From NCBI GenBank assembly GCA_043756765.1, contig JAYUQO010000033.1:1-46229 (forward strand): 46,229 bases of DNA, given 5' to 3'. The DNA comes from Bdellovibrio sp. GTDB lineage: Bacteria > Bdellovibrionota > Bdellovibrionia > Bdellovibrionales > Bdellovibrionaceae. The notes below the pieces were generated by a model. The model was not told the origin of the DNA and ran no database searches. It saw only the letters and a list, made by a program, of their open reading frames with translations. The first letter of the stretch is position 1. Every line of letters begins with the position of its first letter. Below are positions 27,553-37,506 of this stretch, in pieces. Both the position numbers and the translations under genes were made by a program.

Positions 27553-28905
27553 TTAACTACCTCCTCCACCAATTGCTGCTCCTTGTGTTTTTATTTTTGA
27601 CACTGCTTCCTCCATTTTGGCAAACTGCCGACGTAACATTTCTTCTCTTTTTTCTAGATTCTTTTCTTTTCGTTCAATTTTTTGATCTATATTTGAAACT
27701 TGTCGTTGTAGGTTGTTTTTACGATTACCCACAACACCCGCTTGCGGGTCAGTGATTTCACGAATTTTAGTTCGCATATTTGTCACAAAACCTGTGTCCA
27801 CTAAATTACCGCGCATAAATTCAACAACATCTTTTGGATTTTGTGCGACGGCTTTTTTAAATTTTTCAGGACTAAAATTTAATGTTCCTGTTCGGTTGAA
27901 CTCAACACCAAGTTCTAAAATTCTTTCAAATGAACTATTTGTATTTTGAACGTTTTGGATAATTCCGCGTAACCGCGATTCGGTCATTCGCAGCATGCTA
28001 TCGCCACCCAAAGGCCCTAATCTTGGGCTGCCTGTTTTGTCATTGGTTAATTTATTTTGAGTTTGAATAAAACCTAAGGCACCGTTGTAAGCATCAACGA
28101 AAGATTTCATTTTCTCGCCGATGGCTTCATAGTTTTCAGTGACCGATAATTTAATTGGGGTTCCATCACGAGCTTGTTTTAAATCTAAGGTCACACCAGG
28201 TATTAAATCAGTCACTTTATTATCTGATGTTTCAAATTCATGACCATTTAGTTTAAACTTTGCATTTAAAGCTGGCAATCGGTTGTCCAAACTAAAATCT
28301 GTGTCACCATCAATTAAATACACTGTTGGAAATTGAACTTCATTGTCATCACCAGTTTTAGCGCCAGTGATTTGTAATTTAAAACTTTCATCTTTATCTT
28401 TTCTGTCGTTAATTATAGTCGCTTTGACTCCGACATCAGATTGATTAATCAAAGATACAATGCCTTCTAAAGTTGAGTTTTCTTTATCGATATAAACTTC
28501 TTGTTCGCCCTCTGGCGTGTCGAAACGGATATATCCCACACCTAATGATGTTGTGTCTCTGTCAGGAATACCCGAAGAAACGATTGCGGGCTTCGTTGCT
28601 AATTGTTGGACTTCTAAGGTCCAATCACCAGCTTCTGCTATTGAAGGATCTACTTCACCGTCAACGATGTCAGGAAACCCTGAACTAAATTTCATATCAC
28701 TGAAGCCCCTGGCACTAATAATTGTACTTAAGTTTTTAAGAACATCATTTATTTTAGTTTCAAATTCTGAAACAAGTTTGACCTTGTCTTCAATTTTCAG
28801 TTTATCATCCTGCATTTTTTTAACGGGCATACGCTCAGCTTCGATCACTTGATCGACTAAGTTGGGTGGTAATCCGCTTGCAAGTCCGCCTATGCGAATG
28901 GCCAT
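27553..28905 (-). CDS. fliD: Flagellar filament cap protein
   Basis: GLASGL...AER, V.QLA, IPGVTLDL, FVDAYN, LRRQFAKME; GGAGG RBS before ATG 28905. Confidence 0.95.
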   Translation of the reverse strand: MAIRIGGLASGLPPNLVDQVIEAERMPVKKMQDDKLKIEDKVKLVSEFETKINDVLKNLSTIISARGFSDMKFSSGFPDIVDGEVDPSIAEAGDWTLEVQQLATKPAIVSSGIPDRDTTSLGVGYIRFDTPEGEQEVYIDKENSTLEGIVSLINQSDVGVKATIINDRKDKDESFKLQITGAKTGDDNEVQFPTVYLIDGDTDFSLDNRLPALNAKFKLNGHEFETSDNKVTDLIPGVTLDLKQARDGTPIKLSVTENYEAIGEKMKSFVDAYNGALGFIQTQNKLTNDKTGSPRLGPLGGDSMLRMTESRLRGIIQNVQNTNSSFERILELGVEFNRTGTLNFSPEKFKKAVAQNPKDVVEFMRGNLVDTGFVTNMRTKIREITDPQAGVVGNRKNNLQRQVSNIDQKIERKEKNLEKREEMLRRQFAKMEEAVSKIKTQGAAIGGGGS

Positions 28906-29107
28906 TGTTTTCCTCCATGAAATACAATAACTAACCTTCATAGTATGACAGATTTTTTTTAATTTCTGTGAGTCAATTGATTGTCTATGGACTTACTACG
29001 AGTAGGTAAAAAATGCCTCTGATACAAATCAGCTTCACACACTAGACTTGTCACGACGATCAGCTTGTTTATACAATAAAATATTAAAAATAAAAGGACC
29101 TTGATCT

Positions 29108-29389
29108 ATGAAGAATAAAAAAGCATCCAAAAAAAAATTCAGTTCTCTGGGCGGATATCTAAAGGGAAAACGTGAAAGTACCCGCTACACCCAAAGTGAT
29201 GTTGCAAAGACTTGTCAGTGCAAAGCCCAATTTGTTTCGAACTGGGAGCGTGGGTTATGTTCGCCACCATGGCCGATACTTAAAAAATTAATTAAAATTT
29301 ATGATTTACCCCAGAAACAACTATTTTTATTTTTAATGAAGGAACATGAATTGTTAATAAAAAATGAACTGGGAATTAGTAAGAAATAG
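29108..29389 (+). CDS. XRE-family helix-turn-helix regulator
   Basis: LGGYLK..R....TQSDVA......QFVSNWERGLCSPP. Confidence 0.85.
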   Translation: MKNKKASKKKFSSLGGYLKGKRESTRYTQSDVAKTCQCKAQFVSNWERGLCSPPWPILKKLIKIYDLPQKQLFLFLMKEHELLIKNELGISKK

Positions 29390-29397
29390 GTCTAAAA

Positions 29398-30390
29398 CTA
29401 GACCTCTTTTATAACTTCGAAACCTTTTAGACTTCCCACTATGGCATAGCCAACAGCAACAACTTTTGGATTTATTTTCTTTAATTTACCTGCAATAGCT
29501 TGAAGCGTAGCGCCTGATCCAACAGCATCATCAATAATAAGTATTTTTTTATAGCTCGATTTATTTTCCTTTGGATAAATAGTATTTTCTGCATTATCAA
29601 TTCGCTCTTCTAGCTTAGTCAGTGATTTTTGTGCAATTGGCACCTTTCCCGAATAGGCTTTTAAAAAAACAACCTCCGGCAAACTCAGTTTTAAACTTTT
29701 TTTGACTTGGTTTAGAAACGGAATTTTCCTAGGTAGCGAATGTGGAGCCCATGCAATAGCATCTATTTTATGAATTTTAATCAATCTAGCTATAGAATCC
29801 GAAACCTGATGCGCAACTTCATTGATAAGCTTTACATTCTGAGATTGTTTTGCGTAGAGAACTAAATTGCCAAGCTTTGTTTTACCAAATTTCGGCAAAC
29901 TATAAAAATCAGAATAATAGACATGATCTAACTGACAATCAGCAAATGTGTCTTGAAATTTTTTTGATGCTTCAATCATTTTTATTTTAGTATCAAAGTA
30001 GTCATCATATTTTTTTCGCACCTCTGAATATTCGTCAGCTAGTTTTCGAATAAGGTGTATTTGCTTATTTGTTTCAACCCAAGATTTGAAACCTTCTACT
30101 CCATATAAAATTTCTCCTTGGGGGCTTATGTATAGGTAGTTTTTTTCAAACAGGGCCTTTTCAACAGCCGATAAATCTAATTCAACTTTGTATTTTTTAT
30201 TTTCAGATATTTTGTAATAAACGTTAGGCGCTGATCCAATTTTTATTATTTTATTTTCTTCGATTAATTTTTTAAGCTGTCTGTGAACTGCCTGAGCTGA
30301 TATTTTGAAGAAATCAGTTATTTGCCGCGGGCTTGATTGATCATTTTCTTTAATATAATCAAGTATTTGTGATTTTGTAGCTGTTTTCAT
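29398..30390 (-). CDS. Winged-HTH + type I phosphoribosyltransferase (ComF-like) fusion
   Basis: N-terminal wHTH (QILDYIK...ISAQAVHRQLKKL); PRPP-binding loop ILIIDDAVGSGATL. Confidence 0.8.
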   Translation of the reverse strand: MKTATKSQILDYIKENDQSSPRQITDFFKISAQAVHRQLKKLIEENKIIKIGSAPNVYYKISENKKYKVELDLSAVEKALFEKNYLYISPQGEILYGVEGFKSWVETNKQIHLIRKLADEYSEVRKKYDDYFDTKIKMIEASKKFQDTFADCQLDHVYYSDFYSLPKFGKTKLGNLVLYAKQSQNVKLINEVAHQVSDSIARLIKIHKIDAIAWAPHSLPRKIPFLNQVKKSLKLSLPEVVFLKAYSGKVPIAQKSLTKLEERIDNAENTIYPKENKSSYKKILIIDDAVGSGATLQAIAGKLKKINPKVVAVGYAIVGSLKGFEVIKEV

Positions 30391-30421
30391 AGTTTATAGT
30401 TTACTATAAACTATAAACTAT
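30389..30421. promoter_or_regulatory. Perfect inverted repeat / heptamer array over a leaderless promoter (putative operator)
   Basis: ATAGTTTATAGT-TT-ACTATAAACTAT plus an extra AAACTAT; minus strand TTGTTA-N17-TAAACT-N7-ATG. Confidence 0.7.
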
Positions 30422-30486
30422 AACAACATTAATGATTATCGTCTAAAAATCGACTAGTAATTGTCTAATTTTATCGGATTCGAATG

Positions 30487-31666
30487 CTAATCGTAGGCTT
30501 TGCCTTCAGTAGCTAATTGTTCTAAAGATTTGTTGTCACAGTCTCCTGTCCCGACTTCGCCTCCATCAGCCGGAGTGCCATCTAGTTTGAAGGTGTTCAT
30601 ATGAAACCCAGTACTACTATATCTGACTACACCATTTATAATCTGATTAAGCACGTAGATGTTTGATCTACTAGTAGATCCTGTTCCATTGCATTTTAAA
30701 TAATTTTTAAATTTCGGCGCTAAACCTAACTTATTTCTAAACGGATCCAATGTTGATTGTGCCTTTTCCCAAGCTCCAGTTTGACAACTAAGCAATACAC
30801 TATTTGTATCACGAGCCACTAATCCGTTAGGTGAACAAGCCGCACTTTCAACAACAATATCATTCAACTGAACTTTTCCCAATCTAGCAGATCCTGACGT
30901 TATTAAATCATTATTTCCTAATTTTAAATCACCAGTCATCGCATTCGTTCCATCCAATTTTAAATATTTTGTATCTAAATTTTCACAGGCAATACTACCG
31001 TCAGAATTATATCCATTCATGACTTCATTCGCTGCACACTTTTGAACAAATGCATTACCACCGCCACCAGTGCCATTTCCCATACAAGCAACTATTTTCG
31101 TTGCAGTTGGAATAGTACTATCAACAGTTAATACTGCAGTCACAGTAACAGGTTTGTGTGGTCTAACTGATTTTGTTTCATCAAAATCAACGATCCAATC
31201 GCCTTTGTAAGTTGATCCGGAACCGTTCGTGATATTTAATTTAATTGATTTAATAACCATCGATGATGAATACACTGATGCTGATTGTCCGACTTGTGCA
31301 ACAACCACACTTGGCGTGCCTGACATGACACTTGCATAAATTGGCAACGACGGAGTCAACGTTTGCGGAAGCGCACTTGAATTAAAAGTCAGTTGTGTCG
31401 GATTATTTAAAATATGATTACAGACTGAACCTTCAGCTAAAACACTAATTAGATTTTTTTGTAGATCAAGGCCGGCTAAAATTTCAGAAACTGATTTTGT
31501 TTCTTTTTGTTGGTTTAAAATCATTGAAGAAAACCCAACCATGATAATTGCCATAATTCCTATGGCAATTAATGTTTCGATAATAGTTACACCATTGTTA
31601 TTGCTGAGTTGCTGAGTTGCTGAGTTGCTGAGTTGCTGAGTTTATTAATTTCTTATCTTTAAACAT
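30487..31666 (-). CDS. Type IV prepilin-like fibre adhesin with PilV-like motif; frameshifted in an 8-bp repeat tract (putative phase-OFF)
   Basis: Frame upstream of ORF 30487-31554 reads NNNG|VTIIETLIAIGIMAIIMVGF (prepilin cleavage site, E5) but hits TAA at 31644-31642. RBS GGGAG + ATG at 31666 is out of frame (112 bp to ATG 31554). Later YLKLDGTNAMTGDLKLG fibre motif and ACSPNGLVARDTNSVLLSCQTGAW. Confidence 0.8.
31601..31640 (-). repeat. Simple sequence repeat (CTCAGCAA)x5 in the prepilin leader
   Basis: Five perfect TTGCTGAG units on the + strand. Confidence 0.97.
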
Positions 31667-31683
31667 GTCAACTCCCAGTTAAA

Positions 31684-32073
31684 CTACGCTACACGCTTTA
31701 ATAGATTACCTTTGTGAGGATCAGATGAAACTTGATCGAAGACTTCCCATAGACCCATTTCTGAAATACGTCGAATTAATTCACCAGTCGGATTTTTTAC
31801 TTCGGCAAAATAATAGCTGTCTTCTTCAACTAATGTAGCAATCCAAGACATTTCTTTCATGAAGGTTTTTTCGTTTAATAAGTGAATAGCTTTTTCAGCT
31901 TGTTCACGGCTCATTTTTTCTTTTTTAACTTGTCGTTGAAATAAGGCCTGCCCGTTGGCATCGCGATCGTTTGACTGATCAGCTTTAATTGATTTTTCTA
32001 CAGGACGAGCTGAGTCCTTTGAATTGACCCCACTTAGTATTTGATTGGTCCCTGTTAGATTTTTGATGTTCAT
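31684..32073 (-). CDS. FlaG-like flagellar-locus protein
   Basis: C-terminal ...LNE... EVKNPTGELIRRIS resembles FlaG; lies between fliC and fliD with a sigma28-like promoter. Confidence 0.55.
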   Translation of the reverse strand: MNIKNLTGTNQILSGVNSKDSARPVEKSIKADQSNDRDANGQALFQRQVKKEKMSREQAEKAIHLLNEKTFMKEMSWIATLVEEDSYYFAEVKNPTGELIRRISEMGLWEVFDQVSSDPHKGNLLKRVA

Positions 32074-32082
32074 ACCTAGTAC

Positions 32083-32109
32083 TTTTCGGACGAATTTTTG
32101 TTTACTTAA
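32083..32109 (-). promoter_or_regulatory. sigma28 (FliA)-like promoter
   Basis: Minus strand TTAA-N15-TCCGAAAA. Confidence 0.55.
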
Positions 32110-32165
32110 ATTTTTGGATTGATTTGAGACAAAGATCTGGGGCTATAGCCAATACTTATCACTAT

Positions 32166-32231
32166 TTGACCATTTCGGCACTAACTCCAAAATGGTCTTG
32201 ACTATTTGGGATTACAGTCCAAAATGGTCAA
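32166..32231 (+). repeat. Two tandem ~32-bp imperfect palindromes directly before the ATPase ATG (operator + leaderless promoter)
   Basis: TTGACCATTTCGG-N7-TCCAAAATGGTC and TTGACTATTTGGG-N7-TCCAAAATGGTCAA, then ATG at 32232. Confidence 0.8.
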
Positions 32232-33380
32232 ATGAAGACTTTCCCACGTTTATTAAGTGTTGATATAAAAAAAGACCTTGAAAAGAAACTTGTCTTACTG
32301 GCCGGTCCCAGACAATGTGGCAAAACAACTTTTGCAAAAACATTATTTGCTCATTTCGATTATTTAAATTTTGATAACTTTGATGACAAACAAATTATTC
32401 TTAAACAAATGTGGAATCGAAAAAAAGATTTTATTATTCTTGATGAAATTCACAAAATGCCCCGTTGGAAATCATTTTTAAAAGGAATCTATGATAATGA
32501 AGGCGTTAATCCTAAAATGCTTGTTACAGGCAGTGCTCAATTTGATACTTTTCGAAAATTTGGTGACTCATTGGCAGGTCGACATTTTTACTATCGCTTA
32601 CACCCCCTTGATATAAAAGAACTTGTTACCTTAGGTTTTAAAGACAGTCCGCAAAATATTCTTGAACGCCTTATAAAAGTAAGTAGTTTTCCAGATCCTT
32701 TTTTCAACGGTGAAATTGAGTATTATAGAAAATGGCGACAAACACATCTAGATGTTATTATTAAGCAAGATTTAATTGATCTTGAAGCTGTAAAAGATAT
32801 TCAATCCGTTTCATTACTTGTGCAAATGTTACGCTCAAAAGTAGGTTCTGCTTTATCAATTAATTCATTAGCAACTGTACTACACAAAGATCCTAAAACA
32901 ATTCAACGCTGGTTAAACTTGCTCGAAGAACTTTTCGTCATTTTCAAAGTTACACCTTTTTCAAAAAATATTGCAAGGTCTGTCAAAAAAGAACCTAAAT
33001 ATTATTTTTATGACACTGCATTTGTTGAAGGAAGTTATTCTCAAAAAATTGAAAATGTTGTTGCTTGTGCTTTACTTAAAGAGGCTCATTTTCAAACTGA
33101 TGCAAAAGGCAACCCCTACAAGTTGTATTTTTTAAAAGTTAAGGGTGGGCGCGAAATCGATTTTTTCCTTCACGCTGAAGATGCTGATTCAAAATCTTTC
33201 AGTATTGAAGTCAAAGAATCTGATCAAGATCCTTCTGCAAATTTTAAATTATTTAAAGGTGTAGTCAAAAATAATCAACAAATTCAATTAGTAGCCAATA
33301 TAAAAAAAGATTTAACAACAGCAGCGGGTCTTGAGGTTAGAAACTTGGCAGACTGGCTAACTGAAATAAATCTTAAATAG
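32232..33380 (+). CDS. AAA_14 ATPase with DUF4143 (HTH + PD-(D/E)XK-like C-terminus)
   Basis: GPRQCGKTT Walker A, ILDEIH Walker B, VTGS, SLAGR, KYYFYDT, EIDF..IEVK. Confidence 0.88.
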   Translation: MKTFPRLLSVDIKKDLEKKLVLLAGPRQCGKTTFAKTLFAHFDYLNFDNFDDKQIILKQMWNRKKDFIILDEIHKMPRWKSFLKGIYDNEGVNPKMLVTGSAQFDTFRKFGDSLAGRHFYYRLHPLDIKELVTLGFKDSPQNILERLIKVSSFPDPFFNGEIEYYRKWRQTHLDVIIKQDLIDLEAVKDIQSVSLLVQMLRSKVGSALSINSLATVLHKDPKTIQRWLNLLEELFVIFKVTPFSKNIARSVKKEPKYYFYDTAFVEGSYSQKIENVVACALLKEAHFQTDAKGNPYKLYFLKVKGGREIDFFLHAEDADSKSFSIEVKESDQDPSANFKLFKGVVKNNQQIQLVANIKKDLTTAAGLEVRNLADWLTEINLK

Positions 33381-33403
33381 AATATTGAATGTACTTATTA
33401 GAC

Positions 33404-33441
33404 AAAAAGAAAAACCCAGCATGACGTTGGTCGTGCTGGGT
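33404..33441 (-). terminator. Intrinsic terminator after flagellin
   Basis: ACCCAGCATGAC-GTTG-GTCGTGCTGGGT hairpin with an A-tract (U-tract on minus). Confidence 0.7.
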
Positions 33442-33517
33442 AGAGAAAATATTTATTTAAATTGTTTGAGCAGGGCGGAGGTCAAACACACCCCGCCCAA
33501 AAATTTAAACAATTTAA

Positions 33518-34351
33518 TTAACCGATTAATTTTAAAGCCATTTGCGGCAATTGATTAGCTTGTGCTAGTACAGAAGTAGTTCCGTTTAAAAGAACACTGT
33601 TACGAGCTAATTCTGAAGTCGAAGTTGCAACATCTGTATCACGGATACGAGAATTTGCAGCACTGATACTTTCAGACATTGTACCGATCACATCAACCGC
33701 TGATGTTAATCTGTTTTGCATAGCTCCTAAATTTGCACGAGAACCATTTACAGTTAACTGTGCAGAATCTAAAGAAACTAAACCTGCTCTTGCGCCTTCT
33801 TTTGTATTGAAATCAAGATCATCGATTCCCAATGCATCTTTTGTAATATTTGTTTCTGCTGCGTTGTAAGAAATCCAGTCAGTACCTTCATTAGCTGTTG
33901 TTCCAACATGAATGTCGTAGACTCCACCAGTACCATCTAATAATTTTTTAGAACCGAAAGTTGTTGATTCAGCAACACGTTGAATCTCTGATTTCATAGC
34001 ATCAACTTCTTTTTGGATAAATCCACGCTCTTGATCTCCAACTGTATCAGAAGAAGCTTGGATACCTAATTCACGAACACGTGTTAGAATGTTAGAAACT
34101 TCACCCATACTTTGTTCAGCTGTCTGAATCATTGATATACCGTCATTCGCATTTCGTGAAGCCTGTGCGTATGATCTAATTGTTGATTTTAAGTTTTCAC
34201 TGATTGCTAAACCGGCAGCATCATCACCTGCTTTAGTAATTCTTGAACCAGTTGATAATTGCGCCATTGATTTTTGCATTTCACGAGTATTTGTATTCAT
34301 AACTCTTTGTGCATTAATAGCTGCTACGTTTGTTGTAATTCTTAATCCCAT
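33518..34351 (-). CDS. fliC: Flagellin (277 aa)
   Basis: MGLRITTN, LSTGSRI..AGDDAAGLAI, NANDGISMIQTAE, RANLGAMQNRL, SRIRDTD, LAQANQ.P..ALKLIG. Confidence 0.96.
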   Translation of the reverse strand: MGLRITTNVAAINAQRVMNTNTREMQKSMAQLSTGSRITKAGDDAAGLAISENLKSTIRSYAQASRNANDGISMIQTAEQSMGEVSNILTRVRELGIQASSDTVGDQERGFIQKEVDAMKSEIQRVAESTTFGSKKLLDGTGGVYDIHVGTTANEGTDWISYNAAETNITKDALGIDDLDFNTKEGARAGLVSLDSAQLTVNGSRANLGAMQNRLTSAVDVIGTMSESISAANSRIRDTDVATSTSELARNSVLLNGTTSVLAQANQLPQMALKLIG

Positions 34352-34509
34352 GTTCGACCTCTTCTTATATATGTAGGAATCTTCATTCCTGTTTGTACGT
34401 TTGGTGACCTGCACTCTGCTATCTGGACTTTCATCAAAATTCTGCGACAGTCACATCATCAGAATTTCTCAGTCTATCTAGTCGAGTCTGAGTCGTTTTG
34501 TTGATATAC

Positions 34510-34536
34510 CTTTCGGCGAGTCTGTGTTGAGCTTTA
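34510..34536 (-). promoter_or_regulatory. sigma28 (FliA) promoter
   Basis: Minus strand TAAA-N15-GCCGAAAG upstream of flagellin. Confidence 0.8.
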
Positions 34537-34722
34537 GTCGCGTCCTGCATTTCTGGACCAATGACTAGCCGAAACTAGACTAAGGTTTTGAAAAATAGAC
34601 CTTCAACAAGTACTTTTCCAAACTAAAGTCTAGGTATTATGTTGGTCTTATCTAGTCCTACACAGACCAACAACGATCAGACTTCAGTCTTCACAGACTA
34701 AAGAGTCATCTAGTCTTGAAAT

Positions 34723-34752
34723 AAAAAAAGGCCGCACATTTGTGCAGCCTTT
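34723..34752 (-). terminator. Intrinsic terminator
   Basis: AAAGGCCGCACA-TT-TGTGCAGCCTTT with an A7 tract, downstream of 34812-35201. Confidence 0.65.
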
Positions 34753-34811
34753 AACTCAACAAAATTTGTTGATATTTGATTGTATAGCTAATTATAAAAC
34801 TAAATTTATTA

Positions 34812-35201
34812 TTATTTTTTCTTTAAAATAAATGGAGTTGGCTCTGTTCCAAAAGCGTCAATTATTACTGGCACAACTACACCAGATTCAGATCTTACTG
34901 ATTCTGGAGTCACATCTGTGATATCGATTTCAACACGAACATTTGGCAAGAACGACAAAGGACATGCTAATTCAGCAGTTAATTTGTTTTCAACAACGGT
35001 GTATGTGCCTTCGCAACCAGGTTCAGGCATTGCAAAGTCAGGAGTCGATACTGTATAGTTTACAGTTTTATCAGCGCGTAAAAGAATAGTCGACGCGACC
35101 GTGCCTGTTTCTACATCAACAGCTGTGTAGCTACCTAATTCGATGTCTTTAGCTAAACCAAACTGGCAAATAAATAATACCGATAAAAAAATCTTTTTCA
35201 T
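34812..35201 (-). CDS. Small secreted hypothetical protein
   Basis: GAGG RBS, signal peptide MKKIFLSVLFICQFGLA, two Cys in the mature part. Confidence 0.75.
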   Translation of the reverse strand: MKKIFLSVLFICQFGLAKDIELGSYTAVDVETGTVASTILLRADKTVNYTVSTPDFAMPEPGCEGTYTVVENKLTAELACPLSFLPNVRVEIDITDVTPESVRSESGVVVPVIIDAFGTEPTPFILKKK

Positions 35202-35291
35202 AGTGCACCTCTTTGTGGCTAGTCATACCAAATCCAAAGGTATTGCCAAACAAAAAAGGCGTTATTAACGAGATCTTAAAATTACTACACG

Positions 35292-35323
35292 AAAAATGGC
35301 CCTAGCGAACAACCGCTAGAGCC
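35292..35323 (-). terminator. Probable intrinsic terminator after the second flagellin
   Basis: GGCCCTAGCG-AACAAC-CGCTAGAGCC preceded by an A-tract. Confidence 0.55.
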
Positions 35324-35382
35324 TGGGTTTAAGAAGCTATCTATAGGGAGACAACCTCATAAATCTTTTAAATCATTAAGAA

Positions 35383-36210
35383 TTATCCTAGCAATTTCAT
35401 TGCTGAATAGGGCTGTTGGTTTGCTTGAGTCAATACCGAGATTGCTGCATTTTGTAGCATACTTGATGACGCAAGCTCTGCCGATTCTTTAGCAATATCC
35501 GCATCCATCAGACGAGATTTCGCAGATTGTAAGTTTTCATACTTTACATCAAGGACGCTAACCGTAGAATCTAATCGCGACTGAACCGCACCGAAACCAG
35601 ATCGCATGCGTGATACTTTTTCTAAAGCCTCACTCACATTACCCAACAATTCACGGGCTCCTTCTTTCGAACTGATATCAACACCTGTTAACTCTAATCC
35701 ATCAAGTGTCGCATCAGCGTTTGAATTAAATGTAATAATATTTTCTTTGGTATTTTCTGATCCCACATGGAAATCAAATACTGGATTCGAACCATCTAAT
35801 AATAGACGATCACCAAACTTAGTTGTTTTAGAAATACGTTCGATCTCTGCAGATATACTTGAAGCTTCTTGTTGTAAGTAAACACGCTCGTTATCACCGA
35901 TCGTATCTGATGCAGATTGTACACCTAATTCACGTAAACGTGTGATTAAGTTAGCTTGCTCTGATAAGCCACCTTCTGCGACCTGAATTGTTGATACGGC
36001 ATTGAAGGCATTTGATCTAGCCTGTGCTGTACCACGAATTTCTGATTTCATTGTTTCACCGATCGCAAGACCTGCCGAATCGACTGATGCACTGGTAATA
36101 CGATTACCAGTTGCTAAAGCTTGCGAAGCGTTTTGTTGACGCTTCGTCTGCATTGCCATTGCTCTTTGTGCAGAAATCGATGCCATGTTTGTTGTTATTC
36201 TTAAACCCAT
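35383..36210 (-). CDS. fliC: Flagellin (275 aa)
   Basis: MGLRITTN, LATGNRI, IQVAEGGL, RSGFGAVQSRL, DADIAKE, QANQQP. Confidence 0.94.
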   Translation of the reverse strand: MGLRITTNMASISAQRAMAMQTKRQQNASQALATGNRITSASVDSAGLAIGETMKSEIRGTAQARSNAFNAVSTIQVAEGGLSEQANLITRLRELGVQSASDTIGDNERVYLQQEASSISAEIERISKTTKFGDRLLLDGSNPVFDFHVGSENTKENIITFNSNADATLDGLELTGVDISSKEGARELLGNVSEALEKVSRMRSGFGAVQSRLDSTVSVLDVKYENLQSAKSRLMDADIAKESAELASSSMLQNAAISVLTQANQQPYSAMKLLG

Positions 36211-36425
36211 ATAGACGTCCCCCTATTTACATAGTTGTTGTTGTTAATTTTTTGCAAAACGCAAAAATTTTAATAAAAACTCATATTTTTTGTTTTGGGA
36301 GAGAACCCACGAAGTTTTCATAGTGACTGCTAAAAAACTTCATGAGCCTATTGGAGGATCCGACTTGCCTAGTGACTGCCAAGCTTGTCTTAACTCTTTC
36401 GCGTCTCACCAACCGTACAAGAAAT

Positions 36426-36453
36426 ATTTCGGACTAAGGTCCAGAGAACTTTA
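36426..36453 (-). promoter_or_regulatory. sigma28 (FliA) promoter
   Basis: Minus strand TAAAGTT...TCCGAAAT (TAAA-N16-TCCGAAAT). Confidence 0.65.
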
Positions 36454-36540
36454 GCCCTTAGTCGAGTTTTTATTTAACGCGGTACGTTAAGTATGTGATT
36501 TGATTTATTTTGGGGATTAAATTTTTTTTAGGACTAAGGT

Positions 36541-36570
36541 CTGGGCGCGCCTCGACTGAGGTCGCGCCTA
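36541..36570. terminator. GC-rich hairpin downstream of the third flagellin
   Basis: CTGGGCGCGCCTC-GACT-GAGGTCGCGCCTAG; the T-tract lies on the + strand, so direction is unclear. Confidence 0.45.
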
Positions 36571-36592
36571 GCCTTTTCTTCTTTAATTTTGA

Positions 36593-37420
36593 TTATCCAA
36601 TAAGTCTTAATGCTGAACCGGTTCTTTCATTAGCCTGCTGTAACAATACGGTTTGATATTGTTCTAGGATTTGACCACGACGAAGAGCGGAAACCTCTTG
36701 GGCCACATCAGCATCATTAATCTGCGATCTAGCTGCAGATGTATTTTCAATTGATGATCCCAAACTATTTTGCGCTGACTCTAAACGCGATTGAAGGGCG
36801 CCAAATTTAGATCTCTCTAAAGAAATTTGCGTCAATGCTGTGTCTAATGAATCCAGTGATTCACGAGCACCCTCTTTATCAAGAACTCCAGATGATTCCA
36901 GCTGAAGCGCTGACAGCGTTGTATCTGTCTCTGAATTAAATGACACTCGTGAATTTTTATCACCACGAATACCCACTTGAATATCAACAGCACCACCTGA
37001 TCCATCTAATAGTTTTTTAGAACCAAACGATGATGTCTTTGCAATACGATCTAGTTCTAACTGTAAATTATTGTATTCATTCTGCATGAACGATCTTTCA
37101 CGGTCTGAATAAGTATCACTGGCCGACTGAACAGCAAGCTCTCTCATTCTCACAATAATGTTGGATTGTTCACTTAACCCGCCTTCCGCAATCTGCGCAA
37201 AGCTTACGCCCTGTTCAGCATTCCGTTTGGCTACTTCCATACCTTTAATTTCAGAATTCATTTGTTCTGAAATAGCCAACCCCGCAACGTCAGCACTGGG
37301 GTCTGCTAGGCGCGATCCTGAGGCTAAGTTTTTCGAGGCCCTTTCGGTGTCCTTCTGACTTGAACTCATCGCATTTTGGACATTTAATGATGCGAGGTTC
37401 GTGTTTATTCTGAGTGACAT
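36593..37420 (-). CDS. fliC: Flagellin, divergent paralog (275 aa)
   Basis: MSLRINTN, LASGSRL, QIAEGGL, RSKFGALQSRL, DADVAQE, ALRLIG. Confidence 0.92.
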   Translation of the reverse strand: MSLRINTNLASLNVQNAMSSSQKDTERASKNLASGSRLADPSADVAGLAISEQMNSEIKGMEVAKRNAEQGVSFAQIAEGGLSEQSNIIVRMRELAVQSASDTYSDRERSFMQNEYNNLQLELDRIAKTSSFGSKKLLDGSGGAVDIQVGIRGDKNSRVSFNSETDTTLSALQLESSGVLDKEGARESLDSLDTALTQISLERSKFGALQSRLESAQNSLGSSIENTSAARSQINDADVAQEVSALRRGQILEQYQTVLLQQANERTGSALRLIG

Positions 37421-37506
37421 ACGTACAACCTTCTTTCGTGTTAAGAGCACCAAGAGGTCTTATTCACCATGATTAAGACGTAGGTCTAGCTCGGCAGTCA
37501 CACACT

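What the first reader, a model, noticed from the sequence alone, without database searches (positions are those of the whole stretch)
30487..31680. Octanucleotide-repeat phase switch in the leader of a pilin/fibre adhesin (currently OFF)
Seen in sequence: RBS GGGAG + ATG(31666) encodes MFKDKKLIN, then five perfect CTCAGCAA units. With 5 units the frame ends at TAA after 22 aa (MFKDKKLINSATQQLSNSATQQ*). With 0, 3 or 6 units it reads through into NNNG|VTIIETLIAIGIMAII, an intact prepilin cleavage site with E5. The rest of the gene is undamaged. Established: SSRs in cleaved leaders give ON/OFF slipped-strand phase variation without altering the mature protein (as in Neisseria opa pentamers). Inference: this is a contingency locus that switches a surface adhesin, possibly for prey-range bet-hedging or phage-receptor escape. 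I do not recall such a switch being described in predatory Bdellovibrionota.
Basis: partly seen in the sequence, partly recalled or inferred. Interest (0 to 1): 0.88.

Follow-up and report, generated by a model that had tools for sequence, protein, structure and literature searches.

The report
Repeat on/off switch in predator pilins
A pilus-protein gene of an uncultured, likely predatory bacterium is thrown out of frame by five copies of an 8-letter DNA repeat in the front end that would be cut off the protein, and relatives carry such repeats in both in-frame and out-of-frame lengths, so it is likely a random on/off switch for a surface attachment protein, a trick mostly known from pathogens.

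Summary
Observation confirmed. A perfect (CTCAGCAA)x5 tract (31601-31642) sits between RBS/ATG 31666 and the prepilin cleavage site of an otherwise open 367-codon pilin. Five units stop after 22 aa; 3 or 6 read through. It is the only such tract in the 2.3-Mb genome (Pseudobdellovibrionaceae).

Two homologous proteins carry the in-frame three-unit peptide. Other genomes of the genus have different leader repeats: GACA x3/4/8, and a heptamer x9/5/2 in three paralogues of one genome (one in frame, two out, bodies intact; a fourth lacks its start). The same octamer (x10) lies in a lipoprotein signal peptide in a sister genus. Gene bodies show purifying selection.

Best reading: opa-style slipped-strand phase variation of accessory, variable-tip pilins (about 0.7). 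Switching itself is not shown: only contigs were available, they cannot count units, and no three-unit allele was listed. Leader repeats are rare (6 of 198 other prepilins), and the family has true pseudogenes, so drift plus recent decay remains a rival. Prey or phage role is untested.

No paper on this in Bdellovibrionota surfaced in eight searches. This scan noted similar pilin-leader repeats in CPR bacteria, all in frame.

The parts
31672..31676 (-). Shine-Dalgarno-like GGGAG, 5 nt before the ATG
   Evidence: sequence
31598..31666 (-). Leader reading frame as assembled: 22-aa peptide from ATG 31666 ending at TAA (OFF state)
31601..31642 (-). Perfect octanucleotide tandem repeat, 5.25 copies; 3n units put ATG 31666 in frame with the pilin
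31576..31593 (-). Class III (prepilin) cleavage site G|VTIIE with E5
   Evidence: (N_methyl 20.5 bits, cut-off 21.2); homologues P0005 and P0007 pass the cut-off
31084..31590 (-). Conserved N-terminal pilin domain (about 170 aa): long helix plus beta sheet, confident in the model
   Evidence: dN/dS 0.11-0.12 against syntenic orthologues
30487..31083 (-). Variable C-terminal part (putative tip), different between syntenic orthologues; holds a 34-aa match to the end of Shufflon_N
   Evidence: low model confidence
31552..31554 (-). Internal ATG used by gene callers (355-aa product); lies inside the hydrophobic helix, past the cleavage site and E5
   Evidence: (P0002)
31684..32073 (-). Upstream flaG-like gene, ending 17 nt before the pilin ATG; marks the syntenic site between flagellin and fliD
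   Evidence: weak FlaG match, E 0.0035

Best explanation
The five-copy 8-base repeat lies between the start codon and the cleavage site of an otherwise intact type IV pilin gene and puts it out of frame, and it likely acts as a slipped-strand on/off switch: gain of one unit or loss of two would restore a full pilin whose mature part is unchanged, because the repeat-coded stretch is predicted to be cut off by prepilin peptidase. The gene is one of several accessory pilins with a conserved N-terminal domain and an exchangeable C-terminal part. The C-terminal part likely decides what the pilus binds (prey or surface), so a population would be a mix of cells showing or hiding this tip. Shown: tract, frames, intact body, in-frame and out-of-frame relatives, purifying selection. 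Inferred: slippage rate and reversibility, processing and pilus assembly, binding role, selective driver.
For: (1) Unique, perfect, non-triplet tract in the one part of the gene where length change leaves the mature protein alone. (2) P0008 begins MTKDKKLRN-SATQQLS-NKDG and P0003 begins MN-SATQQLS-NKKG. Both are the in-frame three-unit translation, in proteins 74% and 78% identical over the aligned part. (3) Syntenic orthologues L031 and L032 have a short repeat-free leader, so the tract is likely a derived insert. (4) Two other repeat units in related pilin leaders. GACA x4.25 is in frame (L055/L070), x3.25 is out of frame in its orthologue (L053/L284) and x8.25 is out of frame in a paralogue (L058). 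In genome G002 a heptamer follows RBS+ATG in three paralogues: x9.4 in frame (555 aa mature), x5.3 out (635 aa open), x2 out (490 aa open); a fourth has x3.7 with no start codon (731 aa open). Of these 8 DNA-level cases with the query, 2 are in frame, close to the one third expected of freely moving tracts. (5) Excluding the query, 9 of 198 prepilin 5' ends carry a non-triplet repeat, against 11 of 1690 ORF starts in the own genome (one being this gene); 6 of 72 long pilins against 0 of 83 short complete ones. (6) A second allele in runs X1/X2 joins the same tract and differs by 19 synonymous and 2 replacement codons. dN/dS is 0.02-0.21 for pairs that include OFF genes. (7) The genome has a prepilin peptidase and secretins. 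(8) Same logic as opa leader repeats (PMC3745409, passages).
Against: No switching was seen: the contigs break at the tract, and no deletion, joint or bridging piece, which a three-unit allele should give, was listed. DNA of P0003 and P0008 was not seen, and protein databases show only in-frame alleles. Leader repeats are rare: 6 of 198 other prepilins at the threshold, in three genomes. Each repeat pattern was found in only 1-2 of 182 family genomes. None of 68 parsed leaders of the wider family was periodic (82 of 150 were not parsed). The family also holds plainly broken members without repeats: L037/L059, own C239, and an orphan tip on own C228. L284 has an in-frame GTG after its tract that could bypass the frameshift. 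Low dN/dS cannot exclude a recent inactivation. The enrichment counts are over kin and paralogues and over a subset chosen for long ORFs.
Confidence: 0.7

Rival explanations
1. Tolerated accident followed by decay. Cleaved leaders accept insertions, so repeats are born there by chance. A three-unit leader slipped once to five units and the gene is now a young pseudogene in an expendable, fast-turnover family, with no selection for switching.
For: Broken members without repeats exist (L037/L059, own C239, orphan tip on C228). L279 has a repeat and lacks its start codon. Most relatives lack any repeat. No ON allele was listed in the source runs.
Against: Repeats are perfect and reach 8-10 copies. 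They occur in long accessory pilins and in none of 83 short complete pilins, which also have cleaved leaders. Three paralogues of one genome keep the same unit at 9, 5 and 2 copies, with fully open 490-635 codon bodies, although the paralogues are only about 41-48% identical. A divergent second allele shares the tract and shows almost only synonymous change.
Confidence: 0.2
2. Assembly miscount: the real chromosome has 3 or 6 units and the gene is on.
For: At word length 31 the tract forms a loop and the contigs break there, so the unit number could not be checked.
Against: No bridging piece of a three-unit allele was listed. A 42-bp tract is shorter than ordinary reads (general knowledge). 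Four other leaders in two other assemblies are also out of frame from their ATG. A miscount would still leave a repeat in the leader.
Confidence: 0.05
3. No true OFF state: translation restarts at ATG 31554 (AGGA lies 3 nt before it) or shifts frame, so tract length tunes amount or does nothing.
For: A 355-aa ORF starts there. P0025, from another assembly, is called from the same internal Met.
Against: That product lacks the cleavage site, E5 and half of the hydrophobic helix, so it could not be built into a pilus by the known type IV pathway (established knowledge). The AGGA is a Gly codon and is changed in the second allele (positions 31558 and 31561).
Confidence: 0.05

Closest known systems
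Neisseria opa genes, (CTCTT)n in the leader-peptide coding sequence (PMC3745409, passages seen)
   Same: Non-triplet repeat in a cleaved leader; unit number sets the reading frame; several paralogues each with its own tract (as in genome G002).
   Different: Octamer here (tetramer and heptamer in relatives) instead of pentamer; class III prepilin leader instead of an outer-membrane protein leader; free-living sediment bacterium instead of a human pathogen; switching measured for opa (about 1e-3), not here.
Shufflon PilV adhesins of IncI plasmids (TP114, R64; PMC9045228, passages seen)
   Same: Minor type IV pilin with a constant N-terminal part and a variable C-terminal part; short match to the end of Pfam Shufflon_N. 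In PilV the tip sets which bacterial cells are bound.
   Different: No invertible cassettes or recombinase beside this gene. Tips differ between genomes and paralogues instead, and the switch is on/off by repeat, not tip exchange by inversion. Binding is untested here.
Bdellovibrio bacteriovorus prey-attachment apparatus: type IV pili (PMC4237445, passages) and MAT fibre proteins (PMC10769870, passages)
   Same: Same broad lineage; pili needed for prey attachment; a repertoire of diverse adhesin ends.
   Different: No repeat-driven switching in the passages seen; MAT proteins are described as phage-tail-fibre-like, while this protein has a prepilin N-terminus.
Heptamer repeats in pilin leaders of CPR bacteria
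   Same: Non-triplet repeats in cleaved pilin leaders of bacteria that likely live by attaching to other cells.
   Different: Those notes report only in-frame alleles or no switching; here both in-frame and out-of-frame states are seen among homologues.

Membership tests
SSR-mediated translational phase variation (opa type) | Perfect repeat with unit length not a multiple of three in the 5' coding region | tested here: met
SSR-mediated translational phase variation (opa type) | Gene otherwise intact, with frame set by unit number | tested here: met
   purifying selection
SSR-mediated translational phase variation (opa type) | Different unit numbers, in frame and out of frame, among homologues | tested here: met
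   P0003 and P0008, protein level only; GACA and heptamer leaders at DNA level
SSR-mediated translational phase variation (opa type) | High-frequency reversible switching within a clone or population | not testable with these tools
   Only Logan contigs were served; they loop at the tract and drop rare variants
SSR-mediated translational phase variation (opa type) | ON/OFF expression of the protein follows tract length | not testable with these tools
   needs expression data
Type IV pilin / pilin-like protein | Class III signal peptide: basic leader, Gly at -1, hydrophobic helix, Glu at +5 | tested here: met
   sequence; N_methyl 20.5 bits against cut-off 21.2 for P0001, which lacks its leader, 24-25 bits for homologues
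Type IV pilin / pilin-like protein | Pilin fold (long helix packed on a beta sheet) | tested here: inconclusive
   Model has helix 7-56 and strands to residue 173 at pLDDT mostly 75-93. Foldseek gave nothing at E<=0.001. VIA-align lists several pilins at Z 3.6-4.3 (for example 7b7p Z 4.3, rmsd 4.1, 103 aligned), tied with unrelated chains.
Type IV pilin / pilin-like protein | Prepilin peptidase and secretin in the genome | tested here: met
Shufflon PilV system | Constant N-terminal and variable C-terminal region of a minor pilin | tested here: met
Shufflon PilV system | Adjacent invertible tip cassettes with recombination sites and a tyrosine recombinase | tested here: not met
   No cassette array or repeated sites in 28900-33600; the genome's two tyrosine recombinases are on other contigs
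Bdellovibrio MAT fibre proteins | Phage-tail-fibre-like trimeric body | tested here: inconclusive
   No fibre family in the Pfam scan; the C-terminal half was not modelled with confidence and was not folded alone

The most novel reading that the evidence does not exclude
Bdellovibrionota predators have repeatedly evolved a multi-gene, opa-like phase-variable repertoire of prey-binding pilus tips: three unrelated repeat units (4, 7 and 8 bases) invaded prepilin leaders, and the octamer also a lipoprotein leader in front of a fibre-like gene in a sister genus. Each cell would display a random subset of tips and the population would hedge its prey range. This would be pathogen-style multi-locus phase variation used for hunting.
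Probability: 0.35. Interest if true: 0.85.

Novelty: new variant of a known kind. Interest (0 to 1): 0.66.

Why it matters
[quoted passage not shown] A 2026 review notes that closely related predators can differ in prey range (PMC12927660, passage). Repeat switches in accessory pilins of a free-living, likely predatory lineage speak to both. They give countable loci where tract length predicts which tip is displayed, and a mechanism by which prey range could change within a population without new genes. The mechanism itself is old; the host lineage, the prepilin-leader setting with both states seen, and its appearance with three different units are what is new.

Tried and rejected
Allele counting: four runs of one study hold the stretch, all as contigs, two possibly the source of this DNA; no RNA holder listed. 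Laying them gave no indel, joint or bridging piece, so unit numbers of four and above could not be told apart.

JGI metagenome scans with the alignment (0 confirmed of 490 candidates) and with a repeat-plus-flank pattern (0 matches) were blank. The DNA of P0003, P0008 and P0025 was not found in the 52 genus genomes and was not seen.

Foldseek gave no match at E<=0.001. VIA-align gave no Z of 5 or more. The Atlas look-up returned nothing usable. A periodic-peptide test on the best 150 of 1290 wider relatives found none in 68 parsed leaders; it is too blunt to detect even P0008. A shufflon beside the gene was looked for and not found. The promoter/terminator scan was at chance level.

The 11-mer x3 before a Fic gene was considered as a second switch and rejected: it has about three units in all three loci seen. 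The scan's index held no look-alike stretch.

Literature: eight searches listed no title or abstract opening on repeat-driven phase variation in Bdellovibrionota. Two reviews had zero hits for phase variation. Subscription papers and supplements were not searched.

Full report
1. The observation. On the minus strand, GGGAG (31676-31672) precedes ATG 31666. The frame reads MFKDKKLINSATQQLSNSATQQ and stops at TAA. Tandem Repeats Finder gives a perfect 8-mer, 5.2 copies, at 31601-31642, the top-scoring array of the 24 rows for the window. Varying the unit number in silico gives 379, 387, 395, 403 and 411 aa for 0, 3, 6, 9 and 12 units, and 14-39 aa otherwise. The downstream frame is open for 371 codons and starts NNNG|VTIIETLIAIGIMAII. 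The window is contig C33 of a 2.32-Mb, 88% complete assembly. Two or more units of this octamer in a row occur nowhere else in it. Of 85 simple repeats found genome-wide, this is the only one with a non-triplet unit of four or more bases in four or more copies.

2. The organism and the gene. The nearest titled records are 'Bdellovibrio sp.' and related assemblies, placed by the tree tool in Pseudobdellovibrionaceae, Bdellovibrionota. A predatory lifestyle is inferred from that placement, not tested. The gene lies between a flaG-like gene and fliD in a flagellar region, flanked by an AAA_14/DUF4143 gene and an HTH-phosphoribosyltransferase gene. Pfam gives N_methyl at residues 1-23, just under the cut-off (homologues pass), and the last 34 positions of Shufflon_N at 243-276. 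An alignment of 19 homologues shows a conserved N-terminal block of about 175 residues and unrelated C-terminal parts. The AlphaFold model is confident to residue 173 (long helix, then sheet) and poor beyond. Fold searches were inconclusive: pilins at Z 3.6-4.3, tied with unrelated chains. The genome has a prepilin peptidase and two secretins. I read the product as an accessory minor type IV pilin with a variable tip; the binding role is inferred from PilV (PMC9045228, passages).

3. The same repeat in frame. Among 23 homologues, P0008 starts MTKDKKLRNSATQQLSNKDG|ITILE and P0003 starts MNSATQQLSNKKG|LSILE. NSATQQLSN is what three units give in frame. P0008 has a different C-terminal tip from the window's gene. 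Their DNA was not seen, so perfect repeats are inferred, and protein collections can show only in-frame alleles. P0025, on a 49-kb contig, is called from the same internal Met as the window's own gene, which may be another out-of-frame allele; unchecked. Syntenic orthologues L031 and L032 have the same upstream gene, a six-residue repeat-free leader and other tips, so the tract is likely derived.

4. Other repeats in the same position. This is a subset: alone found about 400 N_methyl matches in 52 genus genomes, and I favoured long ORFs and pilin-rich genomes. Excluding the query, 9 of 198 have a non-triplet repeat within 120 nt before the cleavage glycine: six inside the leader and three upstream of the start. 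The control is 11 of 1690 ORF starts in the own genome, one of them this gene. By length: 6 of 72 long, 0 of 83 short complete, 3 of 43 cut by a locus end (Fisher p 0.009 for long against short; kin and paralogues are not independent).

The leader cases are as follows. GACA x4.25 in frame in G019, x3.25 out of frame from the ATG in the orthologue in G006 (an in-frame GTG follows and may rescue it), and x8.25 out of frame in a G006 paralogue; these three run off contig ends. In G002, five paralogues of one subfamily: heptamer x9.4 in frame (555 aa mature), x5.3 out of frame (635 aa open), x2 out of frame (490 aa open, below the survey threshold), x3.7 with TAG where ATG is expected (731 aa open), and one without repeat. 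With the query, 2 of 8 are in frame, 5 out, 1 lacks a start. On the tree the heptamer group is a separate, fully supported clade; the GACA and octamer genes sit in different, less supported groups. The units are unrelated in sequence, which suggests separate origins; no formal clade test was run.

In a sister genus, G093 carries the same octamer x10.1, in frame, in the signal peptide of a small lipoprotein directly upstream of a long gene I take for a fibre-like adhesin (recalled resemblance, untested). 2 of 31 such lipoprotein leaders have a repeat.

5. Is the gene still maintained? In runs X1 and X2 (possibly the source of the assembly) a second allele of 31417-31615 has depth 4.4 and 3.9 against 7.3 and 6.9, with 22 differences. 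It merges with the main allele into one piece that runs 30 bases into the tract. Twenty differences are at third codon positions: 19 synonymous and 2 replacement codons, over 32 synonymous and 109 replacement sites. The tool warns that contigs under depth 5 may hold errors; this pattern is not error-like. dN/dS over the first 137-170 codons is 0.11-0.12 for the window against L031, L032 and L033, 0.02-0.06 in the GACA group and 0.14-0.21 in the heptamer group. This shows long-term selection, not that the gene works today.

6. What speaks against. No switching was observed. The contigs loop at the tract, so four, five, six or more units look alike. A three-unit allele is short enough to give a bridging piece, and none was listed (contigs drop rare variants). 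The feature is patchy: the three patterns hit 2, 2 and 1 of 182 family genomes. No periodic leader showed among 68 parsed of 150 wider relatives. The family turns over fast and has broken members without repeats. Both JGI scans were blank.

7. Mechanism. Slippage during replication adds or removes 8-base units (established for such repeats; not measured here). One state in three is in frame. Then the repeat adds SATQQLSN-type residues to the cytoplasmic leader, which prepilin peptidase would remove, leaving the same mature pilin. Other states give a 14-39 aa peptide. The internal ATG 31554 would give a protein without cleavage site, E5 and half the helix, and its AGGA is not kept in the second allele. 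I put 0.7 on a real switch, 0.2 on tolerated repeat plus recent decay, and 0.05 each on assembly miscount and on bypass by restart. For the driver I favour choice of prey or surface through the variable tip, since pili mediate prey attachment in B. bacteriovorus and are present on the epibiotic B. exovorus (PMC4237445, passages). Escape from pilus-binding phages is equally open.

8. Comparison and novelty. It works like Neisseria opa (PMC3745409, passages) and meets the sequence criteria of that kind; the switching criterion could not be tested. It resembles shufflon PilV in layout but fails the cassette-and-recombinase test. Eight literature searches (listings only) showed no report of repeat-driven phase variation in Bdellovibrionota. 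Term searches in two reviews found no mention of phase variation (PMC13689555; PMC12927660). Of PMC10769870 I saw 12 of 26 matching passages. Of PMC11868660 I saw passages and section 8. Closed-access papers and supplements were not seen. The scan's own notes describe in-frame heptamer repeats in CPR pilin leaders (unchecked). Verdict: new variant of a known kind, interest 0.66.

Noticed in passing
G002: L278-L282: Five paralogous long prepilins; four carry a heptamer tract at the start (9.4, 5.3, 3.7 and 2 units; one in frame, two out, one without start codon). The best locus set for a direct test of an opa-like repertoire.
   Followed up: yes
L285:1132-1554 (G093) and L094/L286 (G118): Octamer tracts (x10.1, same unit as the window; x3.1, another unit) in leaders of a small lipoprotein that precedes long fibre-like genes in a sister genus.
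   Followed up: partly
L004/L043 (G006); L012/L033 and L013/L047: Repeats upstream of pilin start codons: (AGATAT)x6.2 and (AT)x7, the latter with the same length in two genomes; possible promoter-spacing switches.
   Followed up: no
window 32232-33380; L033, L278-L281, L283, L284: Accessory pilin genes very often sit beside an AAA_14/DUF4143-type ATPase gene, mostly divergent, or a Fic gene, which suggests small mobile or exchanged islands.
   Followed up: no
own genome C228 (L022); window 30382-30460: An orphan pilin C-terminal piece (46-56% identical to the tips of P0001 and P0003) faces a Fic gene, the same layout as L031/L032. The Fic gene is preceded by an 11-mer x3 in all three loci. 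The window seems to keep one such unit and a 22-bp inverted repeat before the HTH-PRTase gene.
   Followed up: partly
window 31417-31615 and 31786-31896, runs X1/X2: Patches of about 11% divergence between identical flanks in co-occurring alleles, suggesting recombination in the pilin N-terminal region; runs X3/X4 hold a P0003-like allele.
   Followed up: partly
own genome C239 near 661; L037/L059: Truncated pilin-family genes without a long repeat (C239 has an A8 run in the leader and no ATG); plain pseudogenes of the same family.
   Followed up: partly
window 33518-37453: Three flagellin-like ORFs in a row; the first was confirmed as flagellin.
   Followed up: no
window 32164-32233: A 34-bp imperfect inverted repeat, also a 32-bp direct repeat, just before the AAA_14/DUF4143 gene; possible operator.
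   Followed up: no
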